Source: Promethearchaeota archaeon
Lineage (GTDB): Archaea > Asgardarchaeota > Lokiarchaeia > Sigyniarchaeales > SOKP01
Direction of reading: 5' to 3'
DNA: 28,333 nucleotides
Assembly: GCA_048938025.1 (NCBI GenBank)
Contig: JBHLMP010000049.1
Location: forward strand, 1-28,333
In this document: one piece after another, positions 1,139 through 21,056 of the stretch
How the letters are laid out: every line of letters begins with the position of its first letter
Position numbering within the stretch: the first letter of the stretch is position 1
Made by a program: the position numbers and the translations under genes
The notes under the pieces: generated by a model
Told to the model about the DNA's origin: nothing
Seen by the model: the letters and a program-made list of their open reading frames with translations, nothing else
The model's database searches: none

Positions 1139-2041
1139 GTGTTAAATTACGAGCAAGAACAAAAAATTGTAGAAATTGGTAATGTAAAGATTGGAGGCCA
1201 ACCAGGAGAAAACTCAACAGTAATGATTGGCACAGTTTTTTATGCTAGGCATCCTGCTTTATTAGATGAAAAGACTGGAAAAATAGACAAGGACCTTGTT
1301 GAGAAGGAGTTAAATGAATTTTCTGAAATAATTGAAGATACAGGAATGCAAGGAATTATTGATGTAGTAGGAGCTTATTCAAAGGCTCTTATAAAAGAAT
1401 GTGAGTTTGTTTCAGAAATTGTTGAATATCCTTTTCTGGTTGATGGATTAAATGATGATTCCCGCATTCCAGCCATGGAAGGCTTGAAAGAGATTGGGTT
1501 ATTAGATAGAGCAATATTAAACAGCATAGATGAAAATACAACTGACGTGAGTTTAAATAAATTAAAGGAGATTGGAGTCAAAAATGCCGTACTATTAACT
1601 TTTGGCTCAAAATATATTTTTCCAAAACAAAAAATTGAATTTTTAAGGAATAAACTTATTCCTAAAGCAGAAAAAGCTGAAATAGTAAATCTTTTAGTAG
1701 ATACTGCTGTTTTAGATTTACCCTCTATTGGTATTAACGTTGAAACTACACGACTAATAAAGACTAAACTTGGGTTACCAACTGGATTTGCACCTGCAAA
1801 TGCAATTTATGGATGGAAATATGGTAAAAAGTTTGGAGAAACATCTAGATGCGGAGCAATTGCCTCCATAATGTCTTATTGTGTTAATGGTGGGAGCGAT
1901 TTTGTTTTGTTCGGGCCTATTAAATTTGCCAAATGTGTTGTACCAGCAATTTCATTAATTTCAGGAATTAATTCCTATTATAGAAAAAGAATTTTAAGAA
2001 AGTCAATATCTGAACATACACCTTTAAATAAAATCTTTTAG
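1139..2041 (+). CDS. mtrH: Tetrahydromethanopterin S-methyltransferase subunit H-like (MtrH/MtgA-type pterin:corrinoid methyltransferase)
   Basis: The N-terminus EQKIVEIGNVKIGGQPGENxTVMIGTVFYxRH and the motifs RAILNSI, LVDTAVLD and GSDFVLFGPI are typical of MtrH. GTG start, 20 nt after the upstream stop. Confidence 0.85.
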   Translation: MLNYEQEQKIVEIGNVKIGGQPGENSTVMIGTVFYARHPALLDEKTGKIDKDLVEKELNEFSEIIEDTGMQGIIDVVGAYSKALIKECEFVSEIVEYPFLVDGLNDDSRIPAMEGLKEIGLLDRAILNSIDENTTDVSLNKLKEIGVKNAVLLTFGSKYIFPKQKIEFLRNKLIPKAEKAEIVNLLVDTAVLDLPSIGINVETTRLIKTKLGLPTGFAPANAIYGWKYGKKFGETSRCGAIASIMSYCVNGGSDFVLFGPIKFAKCVVPAISLISGINSYYRKRILRKSISEHTPLNKIF

Positions 2042-3537
2042 GCAATATATCTTATTAATAAATCCTTTGTACGATTTAGGAAATTTGGTAAACTACTATT
2101 AATTTTTTCTTTTTTATTTTCATCATCTAAAAGAAATAAGAGATACATTTCATACATATAGATATTTATTTTTTTAAAAAGAATGGTGGATTCTGCTACT
2201 TTAAATATAGCTTCATCTTCTTTTATTGCTTTATATTTAGAAAAGATCTTAAATAACATAGCAAATTGTGGTGCTGTGATTTCAAATACGTTTAACAATT
2301 CCTCTGTTTTAGGTATATTTGTTAAAGATACAGCCTCAGGAGTATAATAATCTGCTAGTACTAAACCATCATTGCTTAACATTAGTGTTAAATAGGTCCC
2401 AGTTTCTCTTGAAAAATTCTCTAAATTATGCCCGATTAATTCCTTATTAGGACTTAGTTTTGATATTCCGGAGGAGAAAGCCCTTAAAATTGAAAAGAGA
2501 CGAAATATACTGGTTATATAAATTTCTGGTTTATCATCTGAATCTATATTAATTAATTTATCCTTAATTGTTTTTAAATTATCATTTAGTTCCTTAGATT
2601 CAAGAATATCAGGGTCTCCCTTCGATAAAATATACACAATTGGAGTATTTTGCCTAAAATTTTTTAAAATATTAGTTATTTTTTGAAGATATTCAAAGCT
2701 CTCGTCAAATCTATATCTATTTCTTATATCAATAAAGTAAAAAATTAAATCTGCTTCGTATAAATAAATCTGAGCTCTATTGAGATATTTCTCTCTAAGG
2801 CTTAATTGGCCCCCCAAATCCCATAAAAAAATTGTTGTACCAAGTGTTTCAATAGAACTCACTTCGGCTCCAAATGTTGGTTTTAATCCCATTAACTTAG
2901 AAAACTTTCTATCTATGGATAATAGAAATGAGGTTTTACCTGAATCATCTAAGCCAGCAAATATAATTTTCATTCTTCTTTGGGTTGTAATAGGTGTTGT
3001 AGGTGTTTCCTCAATCTTACGAACTTTTTCTAAGAAAATTTTAAAGTAGTGCTCAATATCCTCCTGCGATTTGAATTCATTAACAATTTCATTATCAAAA
3101 ACTTGAAATAAATCCAAAATAATGTTTTTAAGCCTACTAATGTTATTGTACAAAAAGCTTCTTTTATTCTCATCCACAAATAGAGAAAAAGATGTTGCTA
3201 AAGGTTCTTGGTTAAATTTTACATTTATAAAATGAAAAAATGTTAGTGAAGTTAAATTGAAATCTGGAAATGGGATTATACCAAAATACTGAAATTTTGC
3301 AACATCCACTCTATTAAAAATAGAACTATCACCAATTAAGAGACTCAAATTTTTTATTGAAATTTGAGTATAGTCTCTTAAATTTAAATCGAGAATTGCA
3401 TCGTGCGTAGATTCTTTTGCTTCAAATATATTTTGCTCACTAGGTTTTGGAAACATGTATATTGGTTGAGGCCCTAGTACATCATAGGCGCTGAATAGAA
3501 TTCCTCTAACTATTGATGATTTAAGTAGTTCTTCCAT
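2038..3537 (-). CDS. Rag/Arf-like small GTPase with N-terminal uDENN/longin-like domain and C-terminal roadblock-like domain (GTPase A)
   Basis: G1 GLDDSGKTS, G2 KPTFG, G3 WDLGGQ, variant G4 SKGD, G5 TSI. The N-terminal region is ILFSAYDVLGPQP. The C-terminal region includes LMLSNDGLVLADY. Clear paralog of 10781..12199. Confidence 0.85.
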   Translation of the reverse strand: MEELLKSSIVRGILFSAYDVLGPQPIYMFPKPSEQNIFEAKESTHDAILDLNLRDYTQISIKNLSLLIGDSSIFNRVDVAKFQYFGIIPFPDFNLTSLTFFHFINVKFNQEPLATSFSLFVDENKRSFLYNNISRLKNIILDLFQVFDNEIVNEFKSQEDIEHYFKIFLEKVRKIEETPTTPITTQRRMKIIFAGLDDSGKTSFLLSIDRKFSKLMGLKPTFGAEVSSIETLGTTIFLWDLGGQLSLREKYLNRAQIYLYEADLIFYFIDIRNRYRFDESFEYLQKITNILKNFRQNTPIVYILSKGDPDILESKELNDNLKTIKDKLINIDSDDKPEIYITSIFRLFSILRAFSSGISKLSPNKELIGHNLENFSRETGTYLTLMLSNDGLVLADYYTPEAVSLTNIPKTEELLNVFEITAPQFAMLFKIFSKYKAIKEDEAIFKVAESTILFKKINIYMYEMYLLFLLDDENKKEKINSSLPNFLNRTKDLLIRYIA

Positions 3538-3621
3538 TACCTGAAGCTTTTGATTTAATTAGAATAAAAACACTTATATTATTTTTTAGGATAATTAATT
3601 ATTTATATATTAGATTTGTAT

Positions 3622-4578: not shown

Positions 4579-4598
4579 AGGATTGAGGATTAGAAATC

Positions 4599-5207: not shown

Positions 5208-5459
5208 ATGGTAAAAATTACTGGAGGAAGTGGAAGTTCCTTAGATGATGCTATAATCATTTCTGATTGTTCTCACTTTGAAGGCATTGACCAAGAATAT
5301 GTTATATTAAAGAAAAGATTTGGTAATTATAAACTCATAAAACAGAGTCTGATTGAAGAAAGCGGAAAAATATTTGATCTTTTAGAAATACAATTAGATG
5401 ATGGGAGTAAGACTGAAGTATATTTTGAAGTAACAGATTTTTTTGGAATCGGGTTTTAG
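5208..5459 (+). CDS. Small conserved hypothetical protein
   Basis: 83-aa ORF with ATG start and a protein-like pattern (GGSGSSLDDAIII...QSL...FDLLEI...VYFEVTDFFG). Co-oriented with the upstream genes. Confidence 0.7.
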   Translation: MVKITGGSGSSLDDAIIISDCSHFEGIDQEYVILKKRFGNYKLIKQSLIEESGKIFDLLEIQLDDGSKTEVYFEVTDFFGIGF

Positions 5460-5651: not shown

Positions 5652-6614
5652 TTGTCAATCCAATATTTAACAAAGAAAAAAGATGAAAGACCTGCTGAAC
5701 CTTCTAAGATTTTATTCACAGGACTTGACGCAGCAGGTAAAACCACAATCATTTTAGGGTTACAGCGTGAATTTTCTAAGATAGCTTTGCTTAAACCAAC
5801 TCGTGGTGCGCAAAGAAGAATATTTGAATTTTTAGGGAGAGATATAGCAGAATGGGATTTGGGAGGTCAAGTTTCTTATCGAATTGCCTATTTAAAAAAT
5901 CCAGGAAAATATTTTGATGGCACTGAGATTGCTATATATGTGATAGATATACAAAATAAGGCTAGAATCCCAGAAGCAATAAGTTATTTTAAAGATGTTG
6001 TTGAACAGTTTAAGAAACTTGAAATCTCACCTCCTATCTATGTCTTCCTACATAAGTATGATCCCGCACTAATCCGTAATGCTTTAAATGAACTAAAAAC
6101 ATTAGAAATTGAACTAAAAGAAAGAATTAAAAATGTTGTTGATTATAGGGAAATATACTTTTATAATACATCTATTTATGATTTACCATCAATAATTAAA
6201 GCAATGTCTGAGATTTTGTTGAACTTATATCCAAAAGCAGATTTAATAGAGAAAACAATAAATCAATTTGCCGAAAAAGTTAACTCTGAGGGAGTAGTTA
6301 TTCTTGATGATAATTCCCTTATATTAGGAGCATATTATAAAAATGATGAAGCACGAAATCTCTTGTCAGCATCCACACCTTATTTCTTAGCGCTGAATGA
6401 CAATCTTCAATTTACACAAGTTTTACCTGGAAAAGAATATGATGAAAGCAAAATGGTAGTACAAAGATTTGGTAGAAATTTTATTTTTAAACAATTATCG
6501 CTAAAAGAAGGAACTACTCCTTACTATTTAATTATGCTTAAGCAAGATCCAAATGTACTTAAGGAAGATTTTGACTGTTTTTCTAATTTATTAAGTGAAA
6601 TCCTCTATAAATAA
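5652..6614 (+). CDS. Rag-like small GTPase with C-terminal roadblock-like domain (GTPase B)
   Basis: G1 GLDAAGKTT, G2 KPTRG, G3 WDLGGQ, Rag-type G4 HKYD, G5 TSIYD. These are followed by AMSEILLNLYP...INQFAEKVNSEGVVILDDNSLILG, which resembles the Rag linker and roadblock domain. Confidence 0.85.
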   Translation: MSIQYLTKKKDERPAEPSKILFTGLDAAGKTTIILGLQREFSKIALLKPTRGAQRRIFEFLGRDIAEWDLGGQVSYRIAYLKNPGKYFDGTEIAIYVIDIQNKARIPEAISYFKDVVEQFKKLEISPPIYVFLHKYDPALIRNALNELKTLEIELKERIKNVVDYREIYFYNTSIYDLPSIIKAMSEILLNLYPKADLIEKTINQFAEKVNSEGVVILDDNSLILGAYYKNDEARNLLSASTPYFLALNDNLQFTQVLPGKEYDESKMVVQRFGRNFIFKQLSLKEGTTPYYLIMLKQDPNVLKEDFDCFSNLLSEILYK

Positions 6615-6827: not shown

Positions 6828-7784
6828 ATGATAATATGCTCTAATTGTGGAACAACTAATTCTTCAGAAGAACGTATTTGTAGAACATGTGGAGCTCTTC
6901 TCCCTGTCTCGAATAAATCACCACGAACTAAAATTGTATCTAACAAAAAGAAAACCAAATCAAAAAAAAAAGCAATTCAAGAAAATGTCATTGAAAAACC
7001 TTCATTATTGGAGCTACAAGAAATACCAAAGGAATTCGATGAACCGCATTTAAAAGTAAATGATTCACCTGAATATAAAGATATCACTCAAAAATCAGTT
7101 GAGGATAGAAATATAAATGACGAAGAAGAACAGGAAATATTAAAAGAAATAACTCCTAAACCATTTAGAGGATCAATCTTATCTTCTAAAGTAGTATTCG
7201 GAACCCCTCCTGTTAAGGCGACTAAAAAAATCTCTAAACAAACTTTGGAAGGTCAAGAATCTACTTTATTAAAGCAAAAACAACTGGAAGAAGATATGAC
7301 AAAAGTTCTTAAATTTCTTTCAAAAAAAATCACAGTTGAAGAATTACCCTCTGAGAAAACTATAGGAAAAAAAAAAGAAAAAGAAAAGGCTATATCTCCA
7401 TCAAGTATGAATGAAATTTTGAAAGATTTATTAAAACTTGACCTCCATATCGAAGCTTCAGCAATCATCAAAAAGGATGGCACTATTCTCGCCTCAGCCA
7501 TCTCTTCTCGTATGTCTGATTCCTTATTTGCTACGATCGGTCAAAGTTTATCCTTAATCGGAATGGATATAATTGAAAGTTTAAGTGCTGGTAAACTACT
7601 AAATATCTCATTGCGTGGCACTAATGGAGTTCTGGATCTAGCACCCATTGACATTAAAACAACTCAAGGGAGTGATATGATATTAATTATTCTTTCGCAT
7701 CCACGAGTTAAGAGCGGAATAATTCATTTTGCGGCAAATATTGTTAAAAAACAAGTTAAAGAATATTTAGGTCTATCAAAATAA
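6828..7784 (+). CDS. Zinc-ribbon protein with a long charged linker and a C-terminal Roadblock/LC7 (MglB/LAMTOR-like) domain
   Basis: N-terminal CSNC...CRTC, then a Lys/Glu-rich low-complexity linker. The C-terminus IEASAIIKKDGTILASAI...ISLRGTNGVLDL...LIILSHPRVKSGII is typical of roadblock domains. Confidence 0.8.
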   Translation: MIICSNCGTTNSSEERICRTCGALLPVSNKSPRTKIVSNKKKTKSKKKAIQENVIEKPSLLELQEIPKEFDEPHLKVNDSPEYKDITQKSVEDRNINDEEEQEILKEITPKPFRGSILSSKVVFGTPPVKATKKISKQTLEGQESTLLKQKQLEEDMTKVLKFLSKKITVEELPSEKTIGKKKEKEKAISPSSMNEILKDLLKLDLHIEASAIIKKDGTILASAISSRMSDSLFATIGQSLSLIGMDIIESLSAGKLLNISLRGTNGVLDLAPIDIKTTQGSDMILIILSHPRVKSGIIHFAANIVKKQVKEYLGLSK

Positions 7785-7791
7785 GTTACCC

Positions 7792-8589
7792 TTAAAAAAT
7801 TTGTTGTTGAAGAGATATTTTGCTAATTTTTAGAGTTCTAAAATATGATAAATTTTTTTTAATTTCCTGTAGAAAAGAATTAAGTCTATAAATCGAAACT
7901 AAAGGTACAAAATTTTCACTAATTTTAATCCAATTTTCTTCTAATGTTACCATTAAGGGAATGATTATTATTGGCATTTTTATTTTCCAATTACTTCTCT
8001 GGCCTATTAGGGATTGCATGAGACTTGATAAAATTTCAGGATTTTTTTGAAGAACTAGCGCTCTTTGATATTGTAAATTCGCTGCTTTATTAATCATACT
8101 ATAAATGTCTCTCTTTTTCCATTGTTTTGCATCAATAACTAAAAGATAATTATGATCTAAACCTATAATGTCAATTTCATATTTTTTTTGATTAGTTTTC
8201 TTCCTAAAATATGATCTATCTGAAAATCGATAGTTCTTTACTGTTCTATAACCATTCTTTGTAAGAATTTCTTGGATTAAATATTCAAAACCATTATAAT
8301 CTAATAAATTGGATAATTTCTTAATATCTAACTTTAAAATATTAATAGCTTCAATAATGAATAGGATTTTATTAATTGCAAAGTAGTTATTATAGGGACC
8401 TTTTTTAATTGAAATAAATTCAAAATTATTTACAAACTCATGTAATTTCAAATCATTAAATTTTTTTAAAAATCTAATATCATACATTTCACACCAGATC
8501 TCAATCGTATCCTTAGCTGAATCAATTAAAATATGGTAAATTTCATTAAAAAATTGTTTTATACCCAACTCGGAAAGTTGATAAGGCAT
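7792..8589 (-). CDS. PD-(D/E)xK restriction-endonuclease-like (Mrr/NERD-type) protein
   Basis: FEYLIQEILTKNGY...EIDIIG...LVIDAKQW gives the E...D...(D/E)xK catalytic pattern. Confidence 0.75.
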   Translation of the reverse strand: MPYQLSELGIKQFFNEIYHILIDSAKDTIEIWCEMYDIRFLKKFNDLKLHEFVNNFEFISIKKGPYNNYFAINKILFIIEAINILKLDIKKLSNLLDYNGFEYLIQEILTKNGYRTVKNYRFSDRSYFRKKTNQKKYEIDIIGLDHNYLLVIDAKQWKKRDIYSMINKAANLQYQRALVLQKNPEILSSLMQSLIGQRSNWKIKMPIIIIPLMVTLEENWIKISENFVPLVSIYRLNSFLQEIKKNLSYFRTLKISKISLQQQIF

Positions 8590-10780: not shown

Positions 10781-12199
10781 ATGAGTAGTATAGAAAGACG
10801 GATCATAAAATCAGTAATTTTAAGTTTATTTGATGAGGAAGGACCTACACCTAAAATTTATTGGCCCCAAGATATAGAAGAATCTGCTCGTTTAGTCATT
10901 GCAATGAAAACAATCAGCCTTTTAATGGGAGATGCAATATATCAAAATGGAACTGATATTGATGGCGTTAATTATTTTGGTATATTACCTTTTCCTGATT
11001 TAAAAATGAATGGATTAACCTATTTTTTTTTAATATCTGATCCAAAAGCGCGCGGTCATGCAACAGCAGCAACTATTACAGTTTTAATTGATGAGAATAA
11101 CAGGGTTTTTTTTTATGAAAATATGAAATATTTAAGAATAATTATAGATAAAGCAGCTTCAAGAGTTCAAACTTCAAAAAGTTTCGATGAGAGCAAGCAA
11201 ATTATGGAAGATCTAAGACTAGAATTATTTGAATTTACTAAAGAATTAAAAGATCCTTTATCAATAAAACGACAAATAAAAATACTTTTTGTTGGACTGG
11301 ATAGAGCTGGTAAAACAAGCTTTTTACATGGCGTTAAAAAACGGTATTCTGAAATTATAAAAGTTCTTCCTACTAAGGGTGTTGTTAGAACAGAAGAAAA
11401 ATTATTTGAAGAGCAAAACTCTCAGATATCAATCTGGGATTTAGGTGGACAGCAAAAATATCGAGAAAAATTTCTTGAACAGGGAAAAATTTATCTGTAT
11501 AATGTAGATCTATTATTTTATTTTATTGATATACAAGACGCAAAAAGAATTAAAGAAGCTATTGATTTATTTAAAAAAATCTTAAATTCATTAAAGGAAT
11601 TAGATGAATCTCCGCCAATAGTGATATGTGTAAATAAATTTGACCCAGATTTGAAAAAATCAAAAGAGATTAGGAAAATTTTAAAAATTACTGAAGAAGA
11701 AATAATAAAGAGTTCAAGCGATTTCTTTTTTAAAATATTTCATACTTCTGTTTTTGATCATTGGTCGTTAATTTCTGCTTACTCTTATGGGCTCGCACAG
11801 CTTAGCCCTAATCGTGAATTATTTGAAAATCAATTAAAATTCTTAGCAAATAAGACTAATTCAGATGCGTTATTATTACTAAATGACAATGGAATTATTT
11901 TATCTAACTACTCAAACGAAAAATCAGAGATCTCTGAAAAGGTTTTTGAAATATCCGCACCTCACTTCCAAACGCTTTATAAAACATTTAAGGAATTTAA
12001 ATTGTTAAAACAAGATTTCATTGTTTCATCTGGAATAACTGATGAAGAGAGAAAGATAATTTTTAAAAAAATTTTGATAAATAAACATAATTTATATATA
12101 CTTCTTTTTATGGAGAAATTTGAAGGAATTGAAAAGATAGAAAAACAACTTCCAAAATTTACCAAGAATGTAAAAGAATTAATCCAAACGTATATCTAA
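10781..12199 (+). CDS. Rag/Arf-like small GTPase with N-terminal uDENN/longin-like domain (DxxARG motif) and C-terminal roadblock-like domain (GTPase C)
   Basis: G1 GLDRAGKTS, G2 LPTKG, G3 WDLGGQ, G4 NKFD, G5 TSVFD. N-terminal VILSLFDEEGPTP and ISDPKARGH. C-terminal LLLNDNGIILSNY. Paralog of 2038..3537. Confidence 0.88.
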   Translation: MSSIERRIIKSVILSLFDEEGPTPKIYWPQDIEESARLVIAMKTISLLMGDAIYQNGTDIDGVNYFGILPFPDLKMNGLTYFFLISDPKARGHATAATITVLIDENNRVFFYENMKYLRIIIDKAASRVQTSKSFDESKQIMEDLRLELFEFTKELKDPLSIKRQIKILFVGLDRAGKTSFLHGVKKRYSEIIKVLPTKGVVRTEEKLFEEQNSQISIWDLGGQQKYREKFLEQGKIYLYNVDLLFYFIDIQDAKRIKEAIDLFKKILNSLKELDESPPIVICVNKFDPDLKKSKEIRKILKITEEEIIKSSSDFFFKIFHTSVFDHWSLISAYSYGLAQLSPNRELFENQLKFLANKTNSDALLLLNDNGIILSNYSNEKSEISEKVFEISAPHFQTLYKTFKEFKLLKQDFIVSSGITDEERKIIFKKILINKHNLYILLFMEKFEGIEKIEKQLPKFTKNVKELIQTYI

Positions 12200-12330
12200 A
12201 GTTTAAGAATTATACACCTCTCACTTTTTATTATTAAATACTTAAGATTATTATAAAAAAGGAAAGTAAAGATTCTTAAGAAGATAATTTTATTATTTTT
12301 GTAATAAAACTAAATTACTTTCCATAGACT

Positions 12331-12972
12331 TTGATATATAAAATCTATCTAATTGATGGGGATAATGGGATTTCCATATTAGAAACAACTTTTAGAGAAT
12401 TCCAGAAAGGAAAAATTGGAGACAATGTGATACCTGGCTTTTTCAAAGAGTTAAATCAAATTATTGATAATATTCAAGAAGCGATGGCGAAAGGTAAGAG
12501 AAGTGAAGAAATGATAAGAATACTAGAATCTGAAGATTCCACAATAGTAATTTATTATCATCCTGCCTCCCGAATTCTTTTTTGTTCCATTTCTGATGCT
12601 GATGATAACACGGATAAATTAACAGAAGTTATTCAAAAGATCGCAAACAGATTTTGGAAAAAACATCAATCAGATATTAAAACATTTCGAACAACAACTA
12701 ATAAAAGTAGATTTCAAACTATTCAGACGGACATTGAGAATTTAACCCATGGAGGAAAAATTGCAGAAACTTTCCCAAACTTATTAATTGTTAAAAATGT
12801 TTTGGAAAAAATTCTGTCTATGGGGATGATTAATGAATTTGACTTCAAAATAGCTCTAAAATGCACTGGGAATAGTTCCCCTCTAAAAATTGCTAGATTT
12901 TTTAATAAAACAAGAACTGAAATTAATGAAGTCTTAAAAAAATTAGAAGAATTAGACATTATTAAAATGTAG
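12331..12972 (+). CDS. Longin-like domain plus C-terminal winged-helix protein
   Basis: IYKIYLIDGDNGISIL...IPGFFKEL...ILFCSISD...IQKIANRFWKKH follows a longin pattern. CTGNSSPLKIARFFNKTRTEINEVLKKLEELDII follows a wHTH pattern. TTG start. Confidence 0.65.
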   Translation: MIYKIYLIDGDNGISILETTFREFQKGKIGDNVIPGFFKELNQIIDNIQEAMAKGKRSEEMIRILESEDSTIVIYYHPASRILFCSISDADDNTDKLTEVIQKIANRFWKKHQSDIKTFRTTTNKSRFQTIQTDIENLTHGGKIAETFPNLLIVKNVLEKILSMGMINEFDFKIALKCTGNSSPLKIARFFNKTRTEINEVLKKLEELDIIKM

Positions 12973-15223: not shown

Positions 15224-16846
15224 ATGGAAAATATAAGTAATATATTAACAGAATTAGCAAAAAAGCTTAAATCAGAGATATTAGATCATTATAATAAATG
15301 TTACACTTACATAAAAGACTTATACTCATATAAAAATATAGATATTAGTAAAGAATTGTCTGATTTACCTGATAATTTAGTTGAGCAAAACATTCGTGCT
15401 CTAATTTCTGCTACCAATTCAGCTTTAAATACAATTGGAATTCCGTTTCAAGAATTAAATACTGAGGCTGAAATTTTTGATGGGATGTTTAAAGTACAAA
15501 GAGAAATTTATTCAGATTATAATAGTTTCTTTGAATTAAGTTTAAAGCCATATATTAATCAGTACGTTTTTAAAAGCATTCTTGAGTATCTAATTGGGCT
15601 TGATGATAAAAAAGTAAAAAATTTAGATTTGTTTGATTTATTTCCAAAAAATTTTCTAAAGAAAATGAATAAAATAAAAAAACAAAACGAAAATTTAGCA
15701 GACAAAGAATACCTAAAAAAAATCATTGAAAAACTTAATAAGTTTTATGATGCAACCAATTTTTTAATTAATCAAGAAAATTTAGAGGAAATAAATCAAA
15801 AAATACAAGTAGATTCTGGTGATGGCATATTAAAACAACTCGAAGAAGCAAAAAAAGAAAATATTGAAGTACTTGGGAAATCACCCTTATCAGACATGAT
15901 AAGAAATAATCATATTCAAATTGACGATAAAAGCGAAGTTATTCATTTTTATACTAGTTTCCTTGATTATTTTGGAAATTTTCCTCAATTAGATCAAGAA
16001 TTAATTGCTAAATTAAATATTAATATTAAGGATTTTATCAATTCTGCATTAAATTTTTACTCTTTTCTCGATTTAGAAAATCTCTTTTATTTCTTAAGTA
16101 TATTAAGAATATTAGGGCAACAAATACCTTTTACTCAAGATGAAATATTAAACGTTTTAAATTATTTTAGTAGTAGAAAAGTATTTAGTACAGGTAAGTA
16201 TCATAAACCAAATCCAATAAGTAACTTTTTTGGTCTATCTATTTTGTCTGAATTGGGGTCAATAAATCAAACGGAAGTAATAGATCCTTTAGATATTGAA
16301 ATGTTTTTAGAAAATGAATTAAAAAATTTTTTGCCAGAAAAAACATCTTTAAATTTTTTTACTTTATTATCTTTAAAAATTTTGGAAAGAAACGGTGGAA
16401 TTATTGTAGATAAAAGTAATTTAATTAAGCCATCAATACAATTTAATCTAATTAACTTAGAACGCAAAAATTTCCCTGCGGATATGTTATACCATATTGG
16501 GCTTTTGAAAATGATAGATAAAGATATAAATTTAAATGCTTTTAAAAATCCTTATAATACTGAGATCAAAAAGTTGATTTCTCCAACAGGGCTTATAAAT
16601 AATAATTTAACAGATACTGCTAAGGCTTTATTGATATATGATTTATTAGAATTAAGAACTGATGAATTTGCAACTATTAATACCTTACTTAATAATGTAA
16701 TTAGTTGTTTTAACTTCTTTGAAAAAGCAGATTTTAAAGAAGATTTTAATTGGATGAATAATAAGCTTGCTTTTAAAGTAGAACTTCGTATGCTTTTTTG
16801 GACTTTATTAGCTTTTTTACAATTTTCAGATTATTTAGTAGGATGA
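15224..16846 (+). CDS. Hypothetical helical protein; C-terminal half possibly a degenerate prenyltransferase/terpene-cyclase-type alpha/alpha barrel
   Basis: 540-aa ORF with AGGAG upstream. It has repeated hydrophobic helices (LFYFLSILRILG, NFFGLSILSELG, NFFTLLSLKIL, TAKALLIYDLL). The fold call is tentative. Confidence 0.6.
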   Translation: MENISNILTELAKKLKSEILDHYNKCYTYIKDLYSYKNIDISKELSDLPDNLVEQNIRALISATNSALNTIGIPFQELNTEAEIFDGMFKVQREIYSDYNSFFELSLKPYINQYVFKSILEYLIGLDDKKVKNLDLFDLFPKNFLKKMNKIKKQNENLADKEYLKKIIEKLNKFYDATNFLINQENLEEINQKIQVDSGDGILKQLEEAKKENIEVLGKSPLSDMIRNNHIQIDDKSEVIHFYTSFLDYFGNFPQLDQELIAKLNINIKDFINSALNFYSFLDLENLFYFLSILRILGQQIPFTQDEILNVLNYFSSRKVFSTGKYHKPNPISNFFGLSILSELGSINQTEVIDPLDIEMFLENELKNFLPEKTSLNFFTLLSLKILERNGGIIVDKSNLIKPSIQFNLINLERKNFPADMLYHIGLLKMIDKDINLNAFKNPYNTEIKKLISPTGLINNNLTDTAKALLIYDLLELRTDEFATINTLLNNVISCFNFFEKADFKEDFNWMNNKLAFKVELRMLFWTLLAFLQFSDYLVG

Positions 16847-17463
16847 ATTTTATTTAAAATAAAATTTAAGAAATTTTTCACTGAAGGCTTTATTTTGTTT
16901 TCATTAACTAGTGTATTATACTTGTTAATGATTTCTTCATTCAAATCTATATCTATTAAGGCTTTATTTCCTAATTTCATGTATTTCTCAATATCAATAA
17001 GAGGAGAATCTTTCCCTATTCCGGGACAATATTCAATTCCTTTATTACTATAGAATATGTCAATTCCGTATTGATTTTTATCCTCATTTTTATTTATTCT
17101 CTTAAAGGAAAAAGGAAAAGTACGGCAAAACATCGGACGTAGATTATAAATTTTACATATTTTATTTTTAATATCATAAAAATAACATTCTCCCGTCTTT
17201 TTCTTGAATAAACCTACAAAAGCAAATCCTTTTTGTGTTTTTACAGGAGATATAACCATTTTTTTACGATTTTCTTCATTCAACTCCGTATTAAAAACAT
17301 AAAATGCTAAAATGTAAATTAATTCATTAAAAGTTAGAGTTAATCCTTTTTTAATCCTTAATATGTCACTATAAGTAATATTTACTATAGTATTACTATC
17401 TGTGCAACAATTACCACATTTAATACATTCAAATCTAAATTCATGTGATTTTTCCATGTTCAA
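16831..17463 (-). CDS. YkgJ-family cysteine-cluster (CxxCxxCC; Zn/Fe-chelating) protein
   Basis: FECIKCGNCC...CYFYD...CKIYNLRPMFCRTFPF...CPG. Confidence 0.88.
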   Translation of the reverse strand: MNMEKSHEFRFECIKCGNCCTDSNTIVNITYSDILRIKKGLTLTFNELIYILAFYVFNTELNEENRKKMVISPVKTQKGFAFVGLFKKKTGECYFYDIKNKICKIYNLRPMFCRTFPFSFKRINKNEDKNQYGIDIFYSNKGIEYCPGIGKDSPLIDIEKYMKLGNKALIDIDLNEEIINKYNTLVNENKIKPSVKNFLNFILNKIHPTK

Positions 17464-17492: not shown

Positions 17493-20400
17493 TTAATTGG
17501 TTTTAGGAATGATGATTTTCTTTTGAATTAAAGATTCCAGGGCATCAATGATTTTATTTTTATTATGTTCATGAACAGATTCAACAACGTAATCTAAAAG
17601 AAATTCACTCTTATTTTTGGCAATCGAATAAATTACATTAAGAACCCTAGTTTCCATGGTGCTTAACTCACTTTCTTTTCTCAGCTTCGCAACTGGTATT
17701 GGTTTATTAATTACAAATGGCTCTTTATAATATAGTTCAATGTAATCTTTTATAATAGGTGGCACTAAATATTCAAATTGATCTAAAGAACCATCCCAGT
17801 TTTCGATATGTTCACTCAATTGTAAAGTTAATCCAAGGGAAAGATGCATTATCTGTTCTTTTAATCTCTCAGATGCTTTTTCCTTAAGAACAAATACAAT
17901 CCGAATATCTTCCTTATCAAATACTAGGCAGTAGAAATATCTGAAATCTAATTCTAAAATTCTTTCTTTCGGCTGCATTTTAGATTCAGATTCTCCAACT
18001 TCAGAATTTAAATCTTTCCCTACAATTTCTTCTCCAATTGTTGTTATTGCTTGAATAAAACCAGAGAATAATTCCTTTTTATGTTTTTCAAGAATTGAAT
18101 AACTCTGTGAGAAAAGGGGAATTCCACTAATTTTATTAATTACAACAATAGTTTGGATATTAGAAAGATCTTTAAATCTTTGAGTTCTTGCTAGTAATTT
18201 AGATTCTTTTTTTCGTTTTCTTGGTACAATAACATATGACCTAAGACTCAAAGCTCCTAATATTCCTATAATAGCAATAGCAGCAAATAGAATTATCAAA
18301 AGTAATATGTTTGGTCCATTATTTTCTGAAGGAGGGTAAATTATATTAAATTGATAAAGTTCTCTTTGTTCTTCATATCCTGGAGCAGAAAAATCAAATT
18401 CCAGCATATAGGTTCCCGGTGTATCGATAAAAGCTGTATTAAATTCAATTTCATAATAACCATCTGAAAGATCGTGAACAGTATAATAACTTGGATTTGA
18501 TATATTAACAGTTACATATGCCCCAGGAATTCCTTCTTCATCAAAATCTGCATAATAATAAAATTTAATGGTGCTATTTGCATTGAGTATAATATGAGAT
18601 TCTGAATCTAATCTTTGTAAGATAGTGTCTTCCCCTAAATTGATACTTAATGTTATGTTACTAATCGTATACCCTGTTTTATTCATTTTAATAACAATAG
18701 AATATAACCCAAGGGTTCCTAAATCTCCTGTGTCAAGAACAGCCTCATAAATTCCAAGTGCAGCTTGAGTCATATATCTAGTTCCCGAACTCCAGTTAAA
18801 TGATACAACTACATCAGATAGTGTTATATTATTTTCAAAATCCCTAACAAAAACTCGTAAAGGGATTATATCTCCAACCGATCCTCCTGTTATTAAATCT
18901 TCTTTTGCATCATCTGGTTTAAGAAGTGTAATATAACTCTCATGGATAACTATGAAATAGGATTTTAATCCACCTAATGAAGTTCCATTATTCCAAAATA
19001 GTGTAAAATTGTAAATACCGCCTGTAGTGTTTACTGATGAAATACTAAATTGAGAAAATATCACAGTTCCATTAGATTCCGGCGCTTTAGTTTCTTCATA
19101 CCAAATATCTCCTTGGGGGTTATATATAGTCAGATTTGCGATAGTTTGATCCAGTCCTGCCGGTATATCATTAGAATAATTTATCTGTGTTTTTATCTTA
19201 CCAAAATCTCCAGAATTAAAATCTATGATATCCCATTGTCCATTTTTAGAAACATAGGTATTTTTATCCAAAATATAGTTTGGCAAGATTGCTCTAACTT
19301 TCCACCAACCGGGATATTTGGCATGTGATTTATTTACTTTAATATAATCATCTCCATAATTACCTCCTTCAAAGGACGTCAATAAGAAAGTTGGATCTAG
19401 AATAGAAATAATTTTCCAATTCGAAGGCTTATCGACAATGAACTCAAACTCGGAATAGAATGATGGCATATAGAAATTGTGATAAAATTCACAAAAAATC
19501 GTTCCATTATTTAAGATAGTATATGAAATCCCTTCTTCATTTTGTTGATTAATTTTTGAAGTTACTTCATGGAATCCATATAAGGTGGTATCTAATTCAA
19601 ACTTTAAGCTAGGTGAGGTTGTATTTACTGTAAGAATTACGGGATTTGTTTCCCAATTTCCATTAAATATAGTGCTAGCTATTCCCCATTCATTTCCTTC
19701 AGTTAAATTTTGTCCATTCAATTCTAGATTAATCCCATTTTGACTTGAGTTTGCTAAAGTTGTAAGCACTAATGAAACATTGTCAAACCAGAAAATTTGT
19801 TGGAACAAATCGTCAAATCCGGAATATGTAACTGAAGCTCCACTCATTATCCCTATAGAGATATTAAAATTTTGATTATTCTGGATGTTTTCAAAAATAT
19901 TTGAAGTATTAATCCATAAATCTAGATATATCTTTCCTGAATGATGCCATGTTTGCCTTCCAGCCTCTACTATATCCCCTAATCCCTTTGAATATATTTT
20001 CTTGTTGTTTATTTCACAATATAGAAAATTTTCATTAGAGTCCATAGCAGATTCTGCATAGTAATCGAAACTTACATAACCATCAATAACACTTCCTCTA
20101 GGTATTGTTATATTTTGGTATATCTCAGAAAAATCATCTTCATAGTAAGTAGCACTCATTGGATAACCCACATCTCTATATGGTTCTCCTAGTAGTGTTA
20201 CATACATAGCTGTATTATTAGCAATCTGTCCAGGTCCGAAATTTTTAGAGCTCGTCCCGTTATTATATCCCCATGAATTTTTATAATCATAATAATTAGT
20301 AGTTTCATTATAAAATTCATAAAAATCGATATCATAACCGTACCATTGTATTGAACCATCTGAATTAATTGTAATTTTTAAAGTATCTGTTGTAATCCAA

Positions 20401-21056
20401 GGTGTGTAATAGTCAGTAGTGCTACCAGTAAAAGCAAATTGGAGATTATTACTCCCATCATAGATGCATAGTAAATCCCAATCGATTTCAATTTCTATTC
20501 TTGAGAAATGTAGGCGGATCGCACTGGCTCCACTTTCGGTTATAGTACTATGAATATTGAAGGGGTTTGTTGGATCGTGATCTAAATTATAACTATAATT
20601 ATGTGGTGGATTTCCAGGTGGATCAATATTTTGAAATGATTGATATTTTCTATATGGTGAATCAAGCTCATAAAAGTCTTTTTCAGCCACCCAATCCCTT
20701 GTATCTTGAATATTGCTCACATTTGCAATAATTTCTGATACTTTCCAACCATGATTATCATCTAAATAATAATTTAAATTGATCTCTTCTTGATTAGTTA
20801 ATGAAACGCTTTGACTATTATTATATAAATTTCCGTAATCTGTGATATTTAAAGGATCTAATTTTCCTTCAATCAAGTTTAAATTATCATCTGAAAGTTT
20901 AAAGACTTGATTAAAAACATTTAAATTATCATTATTATGCTTCTTTATGTTAGGGTTAATTGATAAAAGTAATCCCAGTGTTATTAAAGCTAATAATGAA
21001 ATTTTACCAAGAAATCTGCATTGATTAAAATTTTTTTTCTTTAATTGCCTATACAT
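17493..21056 (-). CDS. Large single-pass membrane protein: signal/anchor, extracellular CUB and beta-sandwich domains, TM helix, cytoplasmic longin-like and winged-helix domains
   Basis: N-terminal basic plus hydrophobic segment. CUB pattern AIRLHFSRIEIE..WDLLCIYDG...FTG...LKITINSDGSIQWYGY (~20310-20610). Many NxS/T sequons. TM ILLLIILFAAIAIIGILGALSL followed by PRKRKK (~18243-18308). Cytoplasmic IVVINKISGIPLF...LFSGFIQAI longin pattern. Terminal IIDALESLIQKKII wHTH. Confidence 0.8.
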   Translation of the reverse strand: MYRQLKKKNFNQCRFLGKISLLALITLGLLLSINPNIKKHNNDNLNVFNQVFKLSDDNLNLIEGKLDPLNITDYGNLYNNSQSVSLTNQEEINLNYYLDDNHGWKVSEIIANVSNIQDTRDWVAEKDFYELDSPYRKYQSFQNIDPPGNPPHNYSYNLDHDPTNPFNIHSTITESGASAIRLHFSRIEIEIDWDLLCIYDGSNNLQFAFTGSTTDYYTPWITTDTLKITINSDGSIQWYGYDIDFYEFYNETTNYYDYKNSWGYNNGTSSKNFGPGQIANNTAMYVTLLGEPYRDVGYPMSATYYEDDFSEIYQNITIPRGSVIDGYVSFDYYAESAMDSNENFLYCEINNKKIYSKGLGDIVEAGRQTWHHSGKIYLDLWINTSNIFENIQNNQNFNISIGIMSGASVTYSGFDDLFQQIFWFDNVSLVLTTLANSSQNGINLELNGQNLTEGNEWGIASTIFNGNWETNPVILTVNTTSPSLKFELDTTLYGFHEVTSKINQQNEEGISYTILNNGTIFCEFYHNFYMPSFYSEFEFIVDKPSNWKIISILDPTFLLTSFEGGNYGDDYIKVNKSHAKYPGWWKVRAILPNYILDKNTYVSKNGQWDIIDFNSGDFGKIKTQINYSNDIPAGLDQTIANLTIYNPQGDIWYEETKAPESNGTVIFSQFSISSVNTTGGIYNFTLFWNNGTSLGGLKSYFIVIHESYITLLKPDDAKEDLITGGSVGDIIPLRVFVRDFENNITLSDVVVSFNWSSGTRYMTQAALGIYEAVLDTGDLGTLGLYSIVIKMNKTGYTISNITLSINLGEDTILQRLDSESHIILNANSTIKFYYYADFDEEGIPGAYVTVNISNPSYYTVHDLSDGYYEIEFNTAFIDTPGTYMLEFDFSAPGYEEQRELYQFNIIYPPSENNGPNILLLIILFAAIAIIGILGALSLRSYVIVPRKRKKESKLLARTQRFKDLSNIQTIVVINKISGIPLFSQSYSILEKHKKELFSGFIQAITTIGEEIVGKDLNSEVGESESKMQPKERILELDFRYFYCLVFDKEDIRIVFVLKEKASERLKEQIMHLSLGLTLQLSEHIENWDGSLDQFEYLVPPIIKDYIELYYKEPFVINKPIPVAKLRKESELSTMETRVLNVIYSIAKNKSEFLLDYVVESVHEHNKNKIIDALESLIQKKIIIPKTN

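What the first reader, a model, noticed from the sequence alone, without database searches (positions are those of the whole stretch)
2038..21056. Candidate archaeal proto-Rag/Ragulator/FLCN-GATOR-like signalling system spread over the window
Seen within about 19 kb: three GTPase-roadblock proteins (2038, 5652, 10781), a free Zn-ribbon-roadblock protein (6828), a longin-wHTH protein (12331) and a TM protein with a cytoplasmic longin-wHTH (17493). The post-G5 segments (TSIYD..KAMSEILLNLYP; TSVFD..SAYSYGLAQLSPN; TSIF..RAFSSGISKLSPN) resemble the RagA segment [22 protein letters not shown] as I recall it. Known: eukaryotic Rags heterodimerise via roadblock domains, dock on roadblock LAMTORs and are regulated by longin-dimer GAPs (FLCN-FNIP, NPRL2-NPRL3). 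Inference: this is a membrane-anchored sensing circuit built from the same parts. Caveat: the genes are not one operon, and Lokiarchaeia encode many such domains, so the proximity could be chance.
Basis: partly seen in the sequence, partly recalled or inferred. Interest (0 to 1): 0.8.

Follow-up and report, generated by a model that had tools for sequence, protein, structure and literature searches.

The report
Asgard Rag-like GTPase gene neighbourhood
This stretch of an Asgard archaeal genome holds three Rag-like molecular switch genes beside roadblock and longin partner genes, the building blocks eukaryotes use for nutrient signalling, but such parts are already known from these archaea and it is not shown that these six work together.

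Summary
All six genes are at the stated coordinates, and each domain call was checked. Three genes are Rag/Gtr-like GTPases with a Rag-type C-terminal domain. One is a Zn-ribbon-roadblock protein, one a soluble longin-winged-helix protein, and one a single-pass membrane protein with a cytoplasmic longin module.

This domain has the "GP" motif that a 2025 paper ties to FLCN/NPRL2/SMCR8-type GAP longins. The two free longins lack it.

The cluster is the densest of its kind in the assembly: 6 features per 19 kb, against 3 at the next best place. Most of it is collinear in two families of the order. In one genome RagRB, ZnRB and LRR2 sit head to tail.

Against a single system:
- There is no operon.
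- Unrelated genes are interspersed and equally conserved.
- Control regions hold synteny blocks of similar size.
- The longin-wH gene is unlinked in a third family.
- The membrane protein was found linked only in the two genera of one family that were examined.

No interaction evidence was obtained. These architectures and the proto-Rag/FLCN/GATOR idea are already published for Asgard archaea. I rate this a new member of a known kind, of moderate interest. The contig also appears to be co-binned from another genus.

The parts
2038..3537 (-). LRR1: longin - Rag-like GTPase - roadblock-type CTD, 499 aa. Longin is about nt 3088-3537, the Pfam G domain nt 2368-2970, the CTD nt 2041-2454. G4 reads SKGD. 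The GP motif is present. There is no RG at the position of LRR2 R91.
   Evidence: Pfam Gtr1_RagA 65.5 bits, Arf 64.9. Full-length paralogue of LRR2, 34% identity, E 1e-86. Alignment A3. N- and C-terminal profiles.
5652..6614 (+). RagRB: Rag-like GTPase plus C-terminal roadblock-type domain, 320 aa, the same two-domain layout as eukaryotic Rags. G domain nt 5706-6350, CTD about nt 6228-6611. G4 reads HKYD.
   Evidence: Pfam Gtr1_RagA 91.2 bits. Full-length match to solved 8yl2_A, E 7e-92. The G5-CTD segment finds RagA/RagC/Gtr1/Gtr2.
6828..7784 (+). ZnRB: N-terminal Zn ribbon (nt 6828-6902), a low-complexity Lys/Glu-rich linker, and a C-terminal Roadblock/LC7 domain (nt 7392-7781).
   Evidence: Zinc-ribbon Pfam hits below cut-off. 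Profile A6 hits Robl_LC7 chains 7f8m (E 7e-7), 7yh1 and 9jue. Pfam Robl_LC7 in 5 of 7 orthologues; the window's own copy gives E 0.021.
10781..12199 (+). LRR2: longin - Rag-like GTPase - roadblock-type CTD, 472 aa. Longin nt 10781-11176 with GP (G21 P22) and a conserved ARG (R91). G domain nt 11279-11950, G4 NKFD (HKMD or HKFD in the four family-f2 orthologues). CTD nt 11804-12196.
   Evidence: Pfam Gtr1_RagA 90.0 bits, Arf 83.3; Folliculin E 0.005, below cut-off. PDB hits: 8yl2 E 1.4e-35, and RagA E 9e-12 covering 165-402. A3, A4, A5 and A8.
12331..12972 (+). LgWH: soluble longin domain (aa 1-145, nt 12331-12765) plus a C-terminal four-helix winged-helix-like end (aa 155-213). No GP motif.
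   Evidence: AF2 pLDDT 87.9. VIA Z 14.4 Sec22b and 13.5 synbindin. Foldseek also lists NPRL2/3 rows over about 250-280 columns at TM 0.29-0.36. 428 homologues, all hypothetical proteins of Asgard MAGs among the 120 listed.
17493..21056 (-). TM-Lg: signal/anchor, an ectodomain of about 880 aa with no Pfam match (about nt 18312-20939), one TM helix, then a cytoplasmic longin (nt 17724-18161) and a winged-helix-like end (nt 17505-17693).
   Evidence: No Pfam family. AF2 of the last 269 aa, pLDDT 78.3. VIA Z 13.5 Sec22b longin over segment residues 48-192. 224 homologues of 652-2078 aa share this tail. 11 matches in the assembly.
7792..8589 (-). NERD-domain gene. It is not a GTPase-system domain, but it was the neighbour of LRR2 seen in the most genera examined.
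   Evidence: Pfam NERD 22.6 bits. It lies next to the LRR2 orthologue in genera g2, g8, g9 and g23 of family f2, and one gene away in f1.
16831..17463 (-). CxxCxxCC (putative Zn/Fe-chelating) gene 29 bp downstream of TM-Lg on the same strand. The two are possibly co-transcribed.
   Evidence: Pfam PF03692 47.7 bits. Coordinates. It stays in the block in f1 and f2.

Best explanation
The window is a conserved Lokiarchaeia-type (Promethearchaeota) neighbourhood. It carries three ancient paralogous Rag/Gtr-like GTPase genes. RagRB is GTPase-roadblock. LRR1 and LRR2 are longin-GTPase-roadblock. With them are a Zn-ribbon-roadblock gene, a soluble longin-winged-helix gene and a receptor-like membrane gene with the same cytoplasmic longin-winged-helix layout.

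Shown: the domain identities, the Rag-type junction between G5 and the C-terminal domain, the local enrichment, and collinearity across two families.

Inferred:
- The GTPases act as nucleotide switches that pair through their roadblock-type C-terminal domains, as Rags do.
- The fused N-terminal GP-motif longin of LRR1 and LRR2 is a built-in regulator of the FLCN/NPRL2/SMCR8 class. LRR2 keeps a conserved Arg next to it and LRR1 does not.
- The functional core is RagRB-ZnRB-LRR2, perhaps with LRR1. This was probably once an operon and is now a loosely linked set with separate promoters.
- LgWH and TM-Lg are plausible platforms or inputs, but their tie to the core is weak.

Nothing links the locus to TOR-type nutrient signalling.
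For: Domain identities.

LRR N-terminus:
- G21 and P22 are invariant in 14 of 14 LRR1/LRR2 orthologues.
- The G is invariant in 27 of 27 wider relatives.
- ARG is present in 9 of 9 LRR2 orthologues and absent at that column in 5 of 5 LRR1 orthologues.
- Pfam Folliculin is the only recurrent family, matching 7 of 14 members, all below cut-off.
- PMC12290439 (sections 2.4 and 2.6 read) states that the GP motif marks GAP-type longins and Asgard look-alikes, and asks whether Rag/Gtr GTPases are their partners.

Core trio and linkage:
- In G030 (family f2) RagRB, ZnRB and LRR2 lie on one strand with gaps of 120 and 54 bp.
- In the three g9 genomes the examined stretches keep LRR2 beside LgWH and NERD, and G038 and G036 also keep RagRB and LRR1. 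In G055 (g8) RagRB lies 11 kb from LRR2.
- RagRB and LRR1 orthologues of f1 and f2 each form supported clades (100/100 and 97/94). The paralogues therefore predate the family split and have stayed together since.

Density: 6 features per 19 kb against at most 3 elsewhere. The locus has the same layout in the genus-g14 genomes G058 and G050.
Against: - There is no operon in the window: gaps are 117-213 bp and both strands are used.
- Interspersed unrelated genes are conserved equally.
- In 400 kb of control sequence from the same genome pair, blocks of 11, 9 and 7 genes occur, and 10.8% of genes lie in blocks of 8 or more. The locus, at 8 + 4, is in the upper tail but not unique.
- No ZnRB homologue was found beside RagRB in the g9 genomes.
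- LgWH is unlinked from LRR2 in f4. In g2 and g8 an Arf-like small GTPase occupies the place beside LRR2.
- TM-Lg was found linked only in g1 and g14.
- The LRR N-terminus has no structural model here, so the position of GP before strand 2 and the equivalence of R91 to an arginine finger rest on alignment to the solved Asgard longin 8yqg and on topology reasoning.
- No eukaryotic FLCN, SMCR8 or NPRL2 chain was hit by the profiles.
- The density test uses HMMs built from the locus itself.
Confidence: 0.5

Rival explanations
1. The proximity has no function. These are independent members of very large Asgard GTPase, roadblock and longin families. They sit together because of ancient local duplication and slow genome rearrangement, and each works elsewhere with other partners.
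For: - The families are abundant: 34 PF04670 matches, 21 Robl_LC7 matches and 11 TM-Lg-tail matches in 3.5 Mb.
- Unrelated housekeeping-type genes inside the block are conserved just as well.
- Control synteny blocks reach 11 genes.
- Linkage of LgWH and TM-Lg decays with phylogenetic distance.
- Tran et al. 2024 (passages read) state that MK-D1 GTPase genes generally are not in operons with roadblock or longin genes.
Against: - The locus has twice the feature density of any other place in the assembly.
- The three GTPase paralogues have stayed neighbours since before the f1/f2 split.
- RagRB, ZnRB and LRR2 are head to tail with 54-120 bp gaps in G030.
Confidence: 0.35
2. All six proteins form one membrane-anchored sensing circuit: TM-Lg is the receptor, the Rag-like dimers dock on ZnRB as on Ragulator, and LgWH and TM-Lg longins act as FLCN/GATOR-like GAPs.
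For: All six part types are present and verified. TM-Lg has a large variable ectodomain on a conserved cytoplasmic longin tail, which is receptor-like. LgWH gives Foldseek rows to NPRL2/3 over about 250-280 columns.
Against: - LgWH and TM-Lg lack the GP motif that marks GAP longins (criterion from PMC12290439).
- TM-Lg was found linked only in two genera (g1, g14) of family f1, and LgWH is unlinked in f4.
- The NPRL rows have TM 0.29-0.36 and rmsd 14-16 A.
- No LAMTOR1-like anchor was seen.
- There is no operon.
Confidence: 0.12
3. The cluster is an assembly or binning artefact, a chimeric contig that joins unrelated genes.
For: The contig is foreign to its bin. Its LRR2 is 94% identical to genus-g14 genome G058 and 99-100% to G050 pieces, against about 72% to the bin's own genus. 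A native collinear copy lies on contig C13.
Against: The same gene order from 39 to about 22.7 kb recurs on C13 and in G024 and G012 (G002 lacks the MtrH-LRR1 end in the stretch fetched), and G058 and G050 show the same GTPase layout and spacing. The gene order is therefore real. Only the bin assignment is wrong.
Confidence: 0.02

Closest known systems
Asgard Rag-like GTPases of 'Ca. Prometheoarchaeum syntrophicum' MK-D1 (Tran et al. 2024, PMC10933270; passages read) and the solved chains 8yl2, 8zla/9m28 and 8yqg
   Same: The architectures are the same: GTPase-roadblock, and GTPase fused between a longin and a roadblock domain. RagRB matches 8yl2_A full length (E 7e-92). The LRR N-terminus matches the solved Lokiarchaeota longin 8yqg (E 3.8e-10 with profile A8).
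   Different: That paper reports only one Rag-like pair in an operon, and otherwise no operons with roadblock or longin genes. Here three Rag-like genes, a roadblock gene and two longin genes are neighbours across two families. I could not see its supplements (Figs S4-S8, Table 3), so I cannot say whether these orthologues are shown there. No paper was found for 8YL2, 8ZLA or 9M28.
Eukaryotic Rag/Gtr GTPases (RagA-D, Gtr1/2)
   Same: They pass the Pfam Gtr1_RagA cut-off. They have a G domain followed directly by a C-terminal domain, and the junction aligns to RagA, RagC, Gtr1 and Gtr2. G4 reads HKxD in RagRB and in the four f2 LRR2 orthologues; that HKxD is typical of Rags is recalled, not tested.
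   Different: Arf scores are nearly as high, and are tied for LRR1. Two of the three carry an N-terminal longin that no eukaryotic Rag has. Heterodimerisation, Ragulator docking and any TOR link are untested. No phylogeny with eukaryotic sequences was made.
Longin GAP complexes FLCN-FNIP, GATOR1 NPRL2-NPRL3 and C9orf72-SMCR8, and Asgard 'FLCN/SMCR8-type' longins (PMC12290439; abstract, sections 2.4 and 2.6, and passages read)
   Same: The LRR1/LRR2 N-terminal longin has the GP motif at the strand1-strand2 junction. LRR2 also has a conserved Arg in the next hairpin loop. Sub-threshold Folliculin Pfam hits recur. One paralogue has the Arg and one lacks it, which recalls catalytic/non-catalytic pairs.
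   Different: No DENN domain follows; a GTPase does. No eukaryotic GAP longin was hit by sequence profiles. GAP activity and the structural place of the Arg are untested.
Ragulator (LAMTOR2-5) and bacterial MglA-MglB
   Same: A free Roadblock/LC7 domain protein (ZnRB) is encoded next to a small GTPase gene.
   Different: ZnRB has a Zn ribbon and a long charged linker. There is no LAMTOR1-like lipidated anchor. No ZnRB homologue was found beside RagRB in the genus-g9 genomes. Binding was not established.
Asgard modules described by Liu et al. (bioRxiv 10.1101/2020.10.19.343400; passages read): a LAMTOR1-like roadblock + Rab-like GTPase + DENN operon; an NPRL2-like longin + C-terminal domain family; Rag GTPases with a fused longin
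   Same: The same idea, proto-FLCN/GATOR/Ragulator parts in Asgard archaea, and the same domain families.
   Different: Their conserved operon uses a Rab-like rather than a Rag-like GTPase and a DENN protein. This locus has Rag-like GTPases and no DENN. Whether LgWH belongs to their NPRL2-like family could not be checked because the supplementary tables are closed.

Membership tests
Rag/Gtr GTPase family (Pfam PF04670) | G domain scoring above the curated Gtr1_RagA cut-off | tested here: met
   65.5, 91.2 and 90.0 bits against a cut-off of 22. Arf is second at 64.9, 64.6 and 83.3.
Rag/Gtr GTPase family (Pfam PF04670) | A C-terminal roadblock-type domain directly after G5, with the Rag-type junction | tested here: met
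   Sequence level only. RagA aligns to LRR2 165-402. The 86-aa G5-CTD segment finds RagA/RagC/Gtr1/Gtr2 in 18 of 21 rows other than 8yl2. The CTD profile hits 8yl2 220-339. No fold model of the CTD was made.
Rag/Gtr GTPase family (Pfam PF04670) | Obligate dimer through the C-terminal domains | not testable with these tools
It needs biochemistry or a full all-against-all multimer screen.
Rag/Gtr GTPase family (Pfam PF04670) | Phylogenetic placement with eukaryotic Rags rather than Arf/SR-beta | not tested
   No eukaryotic sequences could be obtained. The tree holds archaeal paralogues only.
Roadblock/LC7 (Pfam PF03259), for ZnRB | Sequence match to the Robl_LC7 domain over its whole length | tested here: met
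   Profile A6 hits 7f8m (E 7e-7; 6-118 against 8-112), 7yh1 and 9jue. Pfam matches 5 of 7 orthologues, best E 3.8e-5. The window's own copy scores only 15 bits, E 0.021, below the cut-off of 23.
Longin fold, for LgWH and the TM-Lg tail | beta-beta-alpha-beta-beta-beta-alpha-alpha topology and a strong structural match to solved longins | tested here: met
   LgWH: Z 14.4, rmsd 3.3 A, 127 aligned to Sec22b. TM-Lg: Z 13.5, rmsd 2.8 A, 125 aligned. hhalign between the two families gives only 39% probability.
Longin fold, for the LRR1/LRR2 N-terminus | Homology to a solved longin domain | tested here: met
   Profile A8 hits 8yqg_A, the 'Longin domain' of a Lokiarchaeota Roadblock-Longin protein, at E 3.8e-10 over 13-139 against 11-131. 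The narrower profile A4 gave E 0.034. No fold model was made.
FLCN/NPRL2/SMCR8-type GAP longin | GP motif at the start of strand 2 (criterion from PMC12290439) | tested here: met
   For LRR1 and LRR2, G21 and P22 are invariant in 14 of 14. For LgWH (GDNG) and TM-Lg (SGIP) the feature is not met. Placement relative to strand 2 is inferred from alignment, not from a model.
FLCN/NPRL2/SMCR8-type GAP longin | Catalytic arginine finger beside the GP motif | tested here: inconclusive
   ARG is conserved in 9 of 9 LRR2 orthologues, absent in 5 of 5 LRR1 orthologues, and RG is present in 13 of 27 wider relatives. Structural equivalence to FLCN R164, NPRL2 R78 or SMCR8 R147 is not established.
FLCN/NPRL2/SMCR8-type GAP longin | Sequence membership (Pfam Folliculin) and a following DENN or NPRL C-terminal module | tested here: not met
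   Folliculin hits occur in 7 of 14 members, but all are below the 23.3-bit cut-off, best E 0.0012. 2 of 10 wider relatives also hit below cut-off. A GTPase follows the longin, not a DENN domain. The domain may work like such a longin but is not filed as a family member.
GATOR1 NPRL2/NPRL3-like (longin + C-terminal winged helix), for LgWH | A whole-length structural match to NPRL2/3 | tested here: inconclusive
   Foldseek rows for 9o5d_D, 9o5a_H, 8adl_S and others cover 247-278 columns, but at TM 0.29-0.36 and rmsd 14-16 A. VIA gives 9o5d_C Z 9.6 with 175 aligned at rmsd 13.7 A.
Ragulator-like scaffold | Roadblock dimers held at a membrane by a LAMTOR1-like anchor and bound to Rag C-terminal domains | not testable with these tools
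   Only one free roadblock gene is in the locus, and no LAMTOR1-like gene was recognised among the neighbours scanned.

The most novel reading that the evidence does not exclude
LRR1 and LRR2 may be a self-contained proto Rag-FLCN unit: two Rag-like GTPases that pair through roadblock domains, each carrying its own GP-motif longin. Only LRR2 supplies the arginine, so that it acts as an in-built asymmetric GAP like FLCN-FNIP or NPRL2-NPRL3. The fusion would be Rosetta-stone evidence that the partnership between Rags and GAP longins predates eukaryotes. RagRB-ZnRB would be the Ragulator-like docking pair, and the TM-Lg family the membrane receptors that feed the switch.
Probability: 0.15. Interest if true: 0.8.

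Novelty: new member of a known kind. Interest (0 to 1): 0.45.

Why it matters
The Rag-Ragulator-FLCN/GATOR machinery sits at the centre of eukaryotic nutrient signalling, and its origin is an open question. PMC12290439 asks directly which Asgard GTPases partner the GP-motif longins.

This locus offers a concrete test set. GP-motif longins are fused in the same polypeptide to Rag-like GTPase-roadblock proteins. There are two paralogues that differ at the candidate arginine. A plain Rag-like protein is encoded next to a free roadblock protein. A close homologue of RagRB has already been crystallised (8yl2).

If the fused longin accelerates GTP hydrolysis, the Rag/GAP-longin partnership would be placed before eukaryogenesis. 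If the proteins do not interact, the locus is one more example of abundant Asgard signature proteins lying near each other.

Tried and rejected
- Complex prediction. LRR2 + RagRB + the ZnRB roadblock domain, three chains with own alignments. No verdict: score 0.00, mark 0.32, controls not run. This is no evidence either way.
- Expression. No RNA holder was listed among 20 runs. No reads were laid.
- BLASTP of LgWH against the TM-Lg tail gave nothing. hhalign gave 39% probability.
- Local hhalign of the LRR N- and C-terminal profiles against LgWH, TM-Lg and each other gave nothing. hhalign of the LRR CTD against the ZnRB roadblock gave 0.3% probability.
- The LgWH profile against PDB sequences gave nothing below E 0.07.
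- Pfam found nothing on 9 TM-Lg tails.
- ESM Atlas gave leads only: scores 0.82-0.88 for the TM-Lg tail, and 0.86-0.88 to eukaryotic Gtr1_RagA fragment clusters for the LRR2 CTD. No structure search was possible.
- The 206-218 aa ORFs beside LRR2 in g2 and g8 were tested as divergent LgWH copies. They are Arf-like GTPases.
- The 321-aa ORF beside RagRB in G038 is not ZnRB-like.
- Recent tandem duplication as the origin of the cluster is rejected. Orthologues of RagRB and LRR1 exist in both families, and the deep nodes of the tree are unresolved, with 6 of 14 inner branches open.
- A 'second cluster' on contig C13 is rejected. It is the same locus in the bin's native genome.
- Papers for the PDB codes 8YL2, 8ZLA and 9M28 were not found: 7 unrelated matches.

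Full report
NAMES. I call the six genes:
- LRR1: 2038-3537, minus strand.
- RagRB: 5652-6614.
- ZnRB: 6828-7784.
- LRR2: 10781-12199.
- LgWH: 12331-12972.
- TM-Lg: 17493-21056, minus strand.

The window is the whole of contig C63 of a 3.52-Mb, 88-contig assembly (G000) with about 27-29% G+C.

All six ORFs are at the stated places.

The three GTPases pass Pfam Gtr1_RagA at 65.5, 91.2 and 90.0 bits (cut-off 22). Arf is close behind at 64.9, 64.6 and 83.3.

To test the recalled likeness to RagA, I searched an 86-aa piece of RagBR running from G5 into the C-terminal domain against all PDB sequences on its own. After 8yl2, 18 of the other 21 rows are RagA, RagC, Gtr1 or Gtr2 (best E 0.015). The printed RagA alignment reads [22 protein letters not shown] and continues into the first helix and strands of the C-terminal domain. 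Each E-value is marginal, but the family is consistent.

RagRB aligns over its full length to the solved chain 8yl2_A ('GTP-binding protein', 342 aa; E 7e-92). LRR2 hits 8yl2 (E 1.4e-35), and RagA over residues 165-402, which reaches into the RagA C-terminal domain. The C-terminal profile of the LRR family hits 8yl2 residues 220-339 (E 2.5e-5).

ZnRB starts with CxxC...CxxC; its Pfam zinc-ribbon hits are below cut-off. Its last 130 residues, as a profile of 7 orthologues, hit solved Robl_LC7 proteins: 7f8m at E 7e-7, then 7yh1 and 9jue. The top rows of that search are designer repeat proteins matched by one short stretch, and I discount them. Pfam Robl_LC7 matches 5 of 7 orthologues; the window's own copy gives only E 0.021.

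LgWH was modelled from an 18-row alignment (pLDDT 87.9). It has longin topology over residues 1-145, followed by four helices and a short strand. VIA-align gives Z 14.4 to the Sec22b longin (rmsd 3.3 A, 127 aligned) and 13.5 to synbindin.

The last 269 residues of TM-Lg (pLDDT 78.3) form a long TM/juxtamembrane helix, a longin domain (Z 13.5 to Sec22b, rmsd 2.8 A, 125 aligned) and a similar helical end.

The winged-helix ends were not tested as separate folds. Support for them is weak: MarR-type regulator rows at E 0.7-1 and HTH families in Atlas neighbours.

LRR1 and LRR2 are full-length paralogues (34% identity, E 1e-86), and both carry an N-terminal domain of about 130-150 aa.

A profile of this domain hits only one PDB sequence, 8yqg_A. 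That chain is the longin domain of a Lokiarchaeota Roadblock-Longin protein. The hit is at E 0.034 with 14 sequences and at E 3.8e-10 with a 27-row profile.

The library of 1.84 billion representatives holds 170 proteins with this domain at E up to 0.001. They fall into length classes of about 470-510 aa, about 340-360 aa, about 280-290 aa with the domain in the second half, and 110-200 aa.

Pfam Folliculin is the only recurrent family: 7 of 14 members and 2 of 10 wider relatives. It is always below the cut-off.

The domain has an invariant Gly-Pro (G21 P22 of LRR2) between the first two predicted strands in 14 of 14 LRR orthologues. The Gly is invariant in 27 of 27 wider relatives.

PMC12290439 (abstract, sections 2.4 and 2.6, and passages read) reports exactly such a 'GP motif' at the start of strand 2. 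It finds the motif in FLCN, NPRL2, SMCR8 and C9orf72 and in Asgard look-alike longins, but not in other longins. It places the motif next to the arginine finger, and it asks whether Asgard Rag/Gtr or Arf-related GTPases are the partners.

In LRR2 orthologues an ARG (R91) is conserved in 9 of 9 in the loop before the fifth strand. In LRR1 orthologues it is absent in 5 of 5. In the wider set RG is present in 13 of 27. From longin topology this loop should lie beside the strand1-strand2 loop. That R91 is an arginine finger is my inference and was not tested.

LgWH (GDNG) and TM-Lg (SGIP) have no GP.

3. THE CONTIG IS FOREIGN TO ITS BIN

C63:1-22.7 kb is collinear gene for gene with C13:28.9-53.2 kb of the same assembly. 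17 of 21 ORFs of at least 150 aa have their best full-length relative there, at 42-74% identity, and these include MtrH, NrdD, L13e and Ogg.

Of 24 other genomes of the bin's genus, 18 have one LgWH homologue, 3 have two and 3 have none.

The window's LRR2 is 94% identical to G058 and 99-100% identical to pieces of G050, both of another genus (g14). It is about 72% identical to the bin's genus g1.

C63 is therefore most likely a co-binned contig, and C13 is the bin's own copy of the same locus. It follows that C13 is not an independent second cluster. It also means G000 is only an approximate background for the window. G058 and G050 show the same three-GTPase layout.

4. IS THE LINKAGE MORE THAN CHANCE?

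Density. I built HMMs from the six domain alignments and added the PF04670 and PF03259 matches. This gave 98 feature ORFs in G000. The locus has 6 per 19 kb, on C63 and again on C13, while the next best places have 3. When 92 features were placed at random among genes, the maximum reached 6 in 10 of 2000 trials and 5 or more in 106 of 2000. The caveat is that four of the HMMs come from the locus itself.

Synteny.
- In genus g1 (G024, G012, G002) almost the whole block is collinear.
- In family f2, G038 and G036 (g9) keep CxxC - methyltransferase - hyp172 - (L13e) - LgWH - transglutaminase-like - LRR2 - NERD - RagRB - ... - LOG - AIRS - LRR1 - hyp359.
- In G030 (g5), RagRB, ZnRB and LRR2 lie on one strand with gaps of 120 and 54 bp, followed by LgWH.
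- G032 and G025 (g2), G055 (g8) and G051 (g23) keep NERD next to LRR2. In G055 RagRB is 11 kb away. In g2 and g8 an Arf-like small GTPase lies beside LRR2, and no LgWH was detected.
- In family f4 LgWH homologues exist in 4 of 4 genomes, but on other contigs than LRR2. In the complete genome G033 they are about 2.27 Mb apart.
- TM-Lg was found in the block only in g1 and in the window's lineage.

Control. In 400 kb of G038 taken away from the locus, 186 genes with a homologue in G000 fall into 106 collinear blocks. The largest hold 11, 9, 7 and 6 genes, and 10.8% of genes lie in blocks of 8 or more. The locus gives blocks of 8 and 4. The conservation is therefore in the upper tail but not exceptional, and the interspersed unrelated genes share it.

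Age. RagRB orthologues and LRR1 orthologues of both families each form supported clades (100/100 and 97/94). Deeper nodes are open: 6 of 14 inner branches. The paralogues are old, not a recent tandem array.

5. GENE LAYOUT IN THE WINDOW

- LRR1 is convergent with MtrH and divergent from AIRS-LOG.
- RagRB and ZnRB are on one strand, 213 bp apart.
- NERD is on the other strand.
- NrdD, LRR2, LgWH, L13e and hyp172 follow on one strand with gaps of 117-167 bp.
- TM-Lg is followed after 29 bp by the CxxCxxCC gene.

This is not one operon.

6. WHAT IS KNOWN

Tran et al. [quoted passage not shown] They report one Rag-like pair in an operon with a predicted heterodimer through the roadblock domains. 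They state that GTPase genes generally are not in operons with roadblock, longin or TRAPPC3 genes.

Liu et al. (bioRxiv 10.1101/2020.10.19.343400; passages read) describe Rag GTPases with a fused longin, an NPRL2-like longin plus C-terminal domain family, and a conserved LAMTOR1-like + Rab-like + DENN operon. They discuss FLCN/GATOR/Ragulator analogies.

Searches for 'Rag-like' + Asgard + GTPase gave 2 papers, and searches for the PDB codes gave nothing relevant. In the passages I read I did not see the fused longin classed as GP-type, nor this particular neighbourhood. The supplements of these papers were closed and may hold both.

7. VERDICT

The parts list is right and the clustering is real and old. 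A single six-part membrane-anchored circuit is not supported. The best-supported core is RagRB-ZnRB-LRR2, with LRR1 nearby.

My mechanism is an inference: roadblock-mediated pairing of Rag-like switches, with a built-in GP-longin regulator. I rate it at about 0.5, against 0.35 for functionless proximity.

Novelty: a new member of a known kind. Interest: 0.45. The value lies mainly in the testable link between GP-motif longins and Rag-like GTPases.

Noticed in passing
window 1-22700 against G000:C13:28869-53183: The whole contig up to about 22.7 kb is collinear with another contig of the same assembly at 42-74% protein identity. Its LRR2 is 94-100% identical to genomes of another genus (G058, G050). 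The contig is most likely co-binned from a different organism (bin contamination 5.14%). Two smaller contig pairs (C17/C54, C64/C71) show the same pattern.
   Followed up: partly
window 23390-28239: Hydantoinase A, hydantoinase B and an acetone-carboxylase-gamma-like gene lie in a stretch with higher G+C (0.35-0.36 against about 0.27). Collinearity with C13 ends just before it. This may be an acquired island or a lineage-specific insertion.
   Followed up: no
window 12200-12330; L043:13780-15057, L035:15767-17053: In every other genome examined that carries both LRR2 and LgWH, a 400-430 aa gene lies between them on the opposite strand; the two copies scanned are transglutaminase-like (Pfam Transglut_core, 81-84 bits). 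It is missing in the window, where only 131 bp separate the two genes.
   Followed up: partly
window 7792-8589 and relatives (L058, L060, L065, L066, L035, L041, L040): The NERD-domain gene was the neighbour of LRR2 seen in the most genera examined. It is adjacent and on the opposite strand in four genera of family f2. In family f1 the anaerobic ribonucleotide reductase gene nrdD sits between them.
   Followed up: partly
L058:18900-19520, L060:16169-16825, L066:13836-14456: In genera g2 and g8 a 206-218 aa Arf/Ras-like small GTPase lies directly beside the LRR2 orthologue, and no LgWH homologue was detected in those genomes with this query.
   Followed up: partly
G000:C13:6103-21981: Upstream of the native copy of the locus lie two ORFs of 377 and 349 aa that carry the LRR-type longin and also match LRR2 by BLAST over about 300 aa. 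Two further ORFs match the TM-Lg tail profile. That makes 10 feature genes in about 45 kb. The window starts too late to show whether its own lineage has them. G058:C95:6659 has a weak GTPase match at the corresponding place.
   Followed up: no
window 17493-18302 and G000 contigs C70, C45, C86, C72, C66, C5: The cytoplasmic longin plus helical tail of TM-Lg is shared by a family of 11 matches in the assembly. The public protein collection holds 224 proteins with it among those of 652-2078 aa searched, with very different ectodomains. This looks like a receptor-like family with no Pfam model.
   Followed up: partly
L031:12297-13658 (G030 LRR2 orthologue): This orthologue has lost the DxxGQ motif (it reads WDYKPKEKY) while keeping the P-loop, and it sits on a long branch in the tree. 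It may be a pseudo-GTPase.
   Followed up: no
window 39-1118, 5208-5459, 13829-14347, 15224-16846, 21196-21513: Five ORFs have no Pfam family. Four of them (hyp359, hyp172, hyp540, hyp105) are conserved in position in relatives, and hyp359 and hyp172 also in family f2.
   Followed up: no
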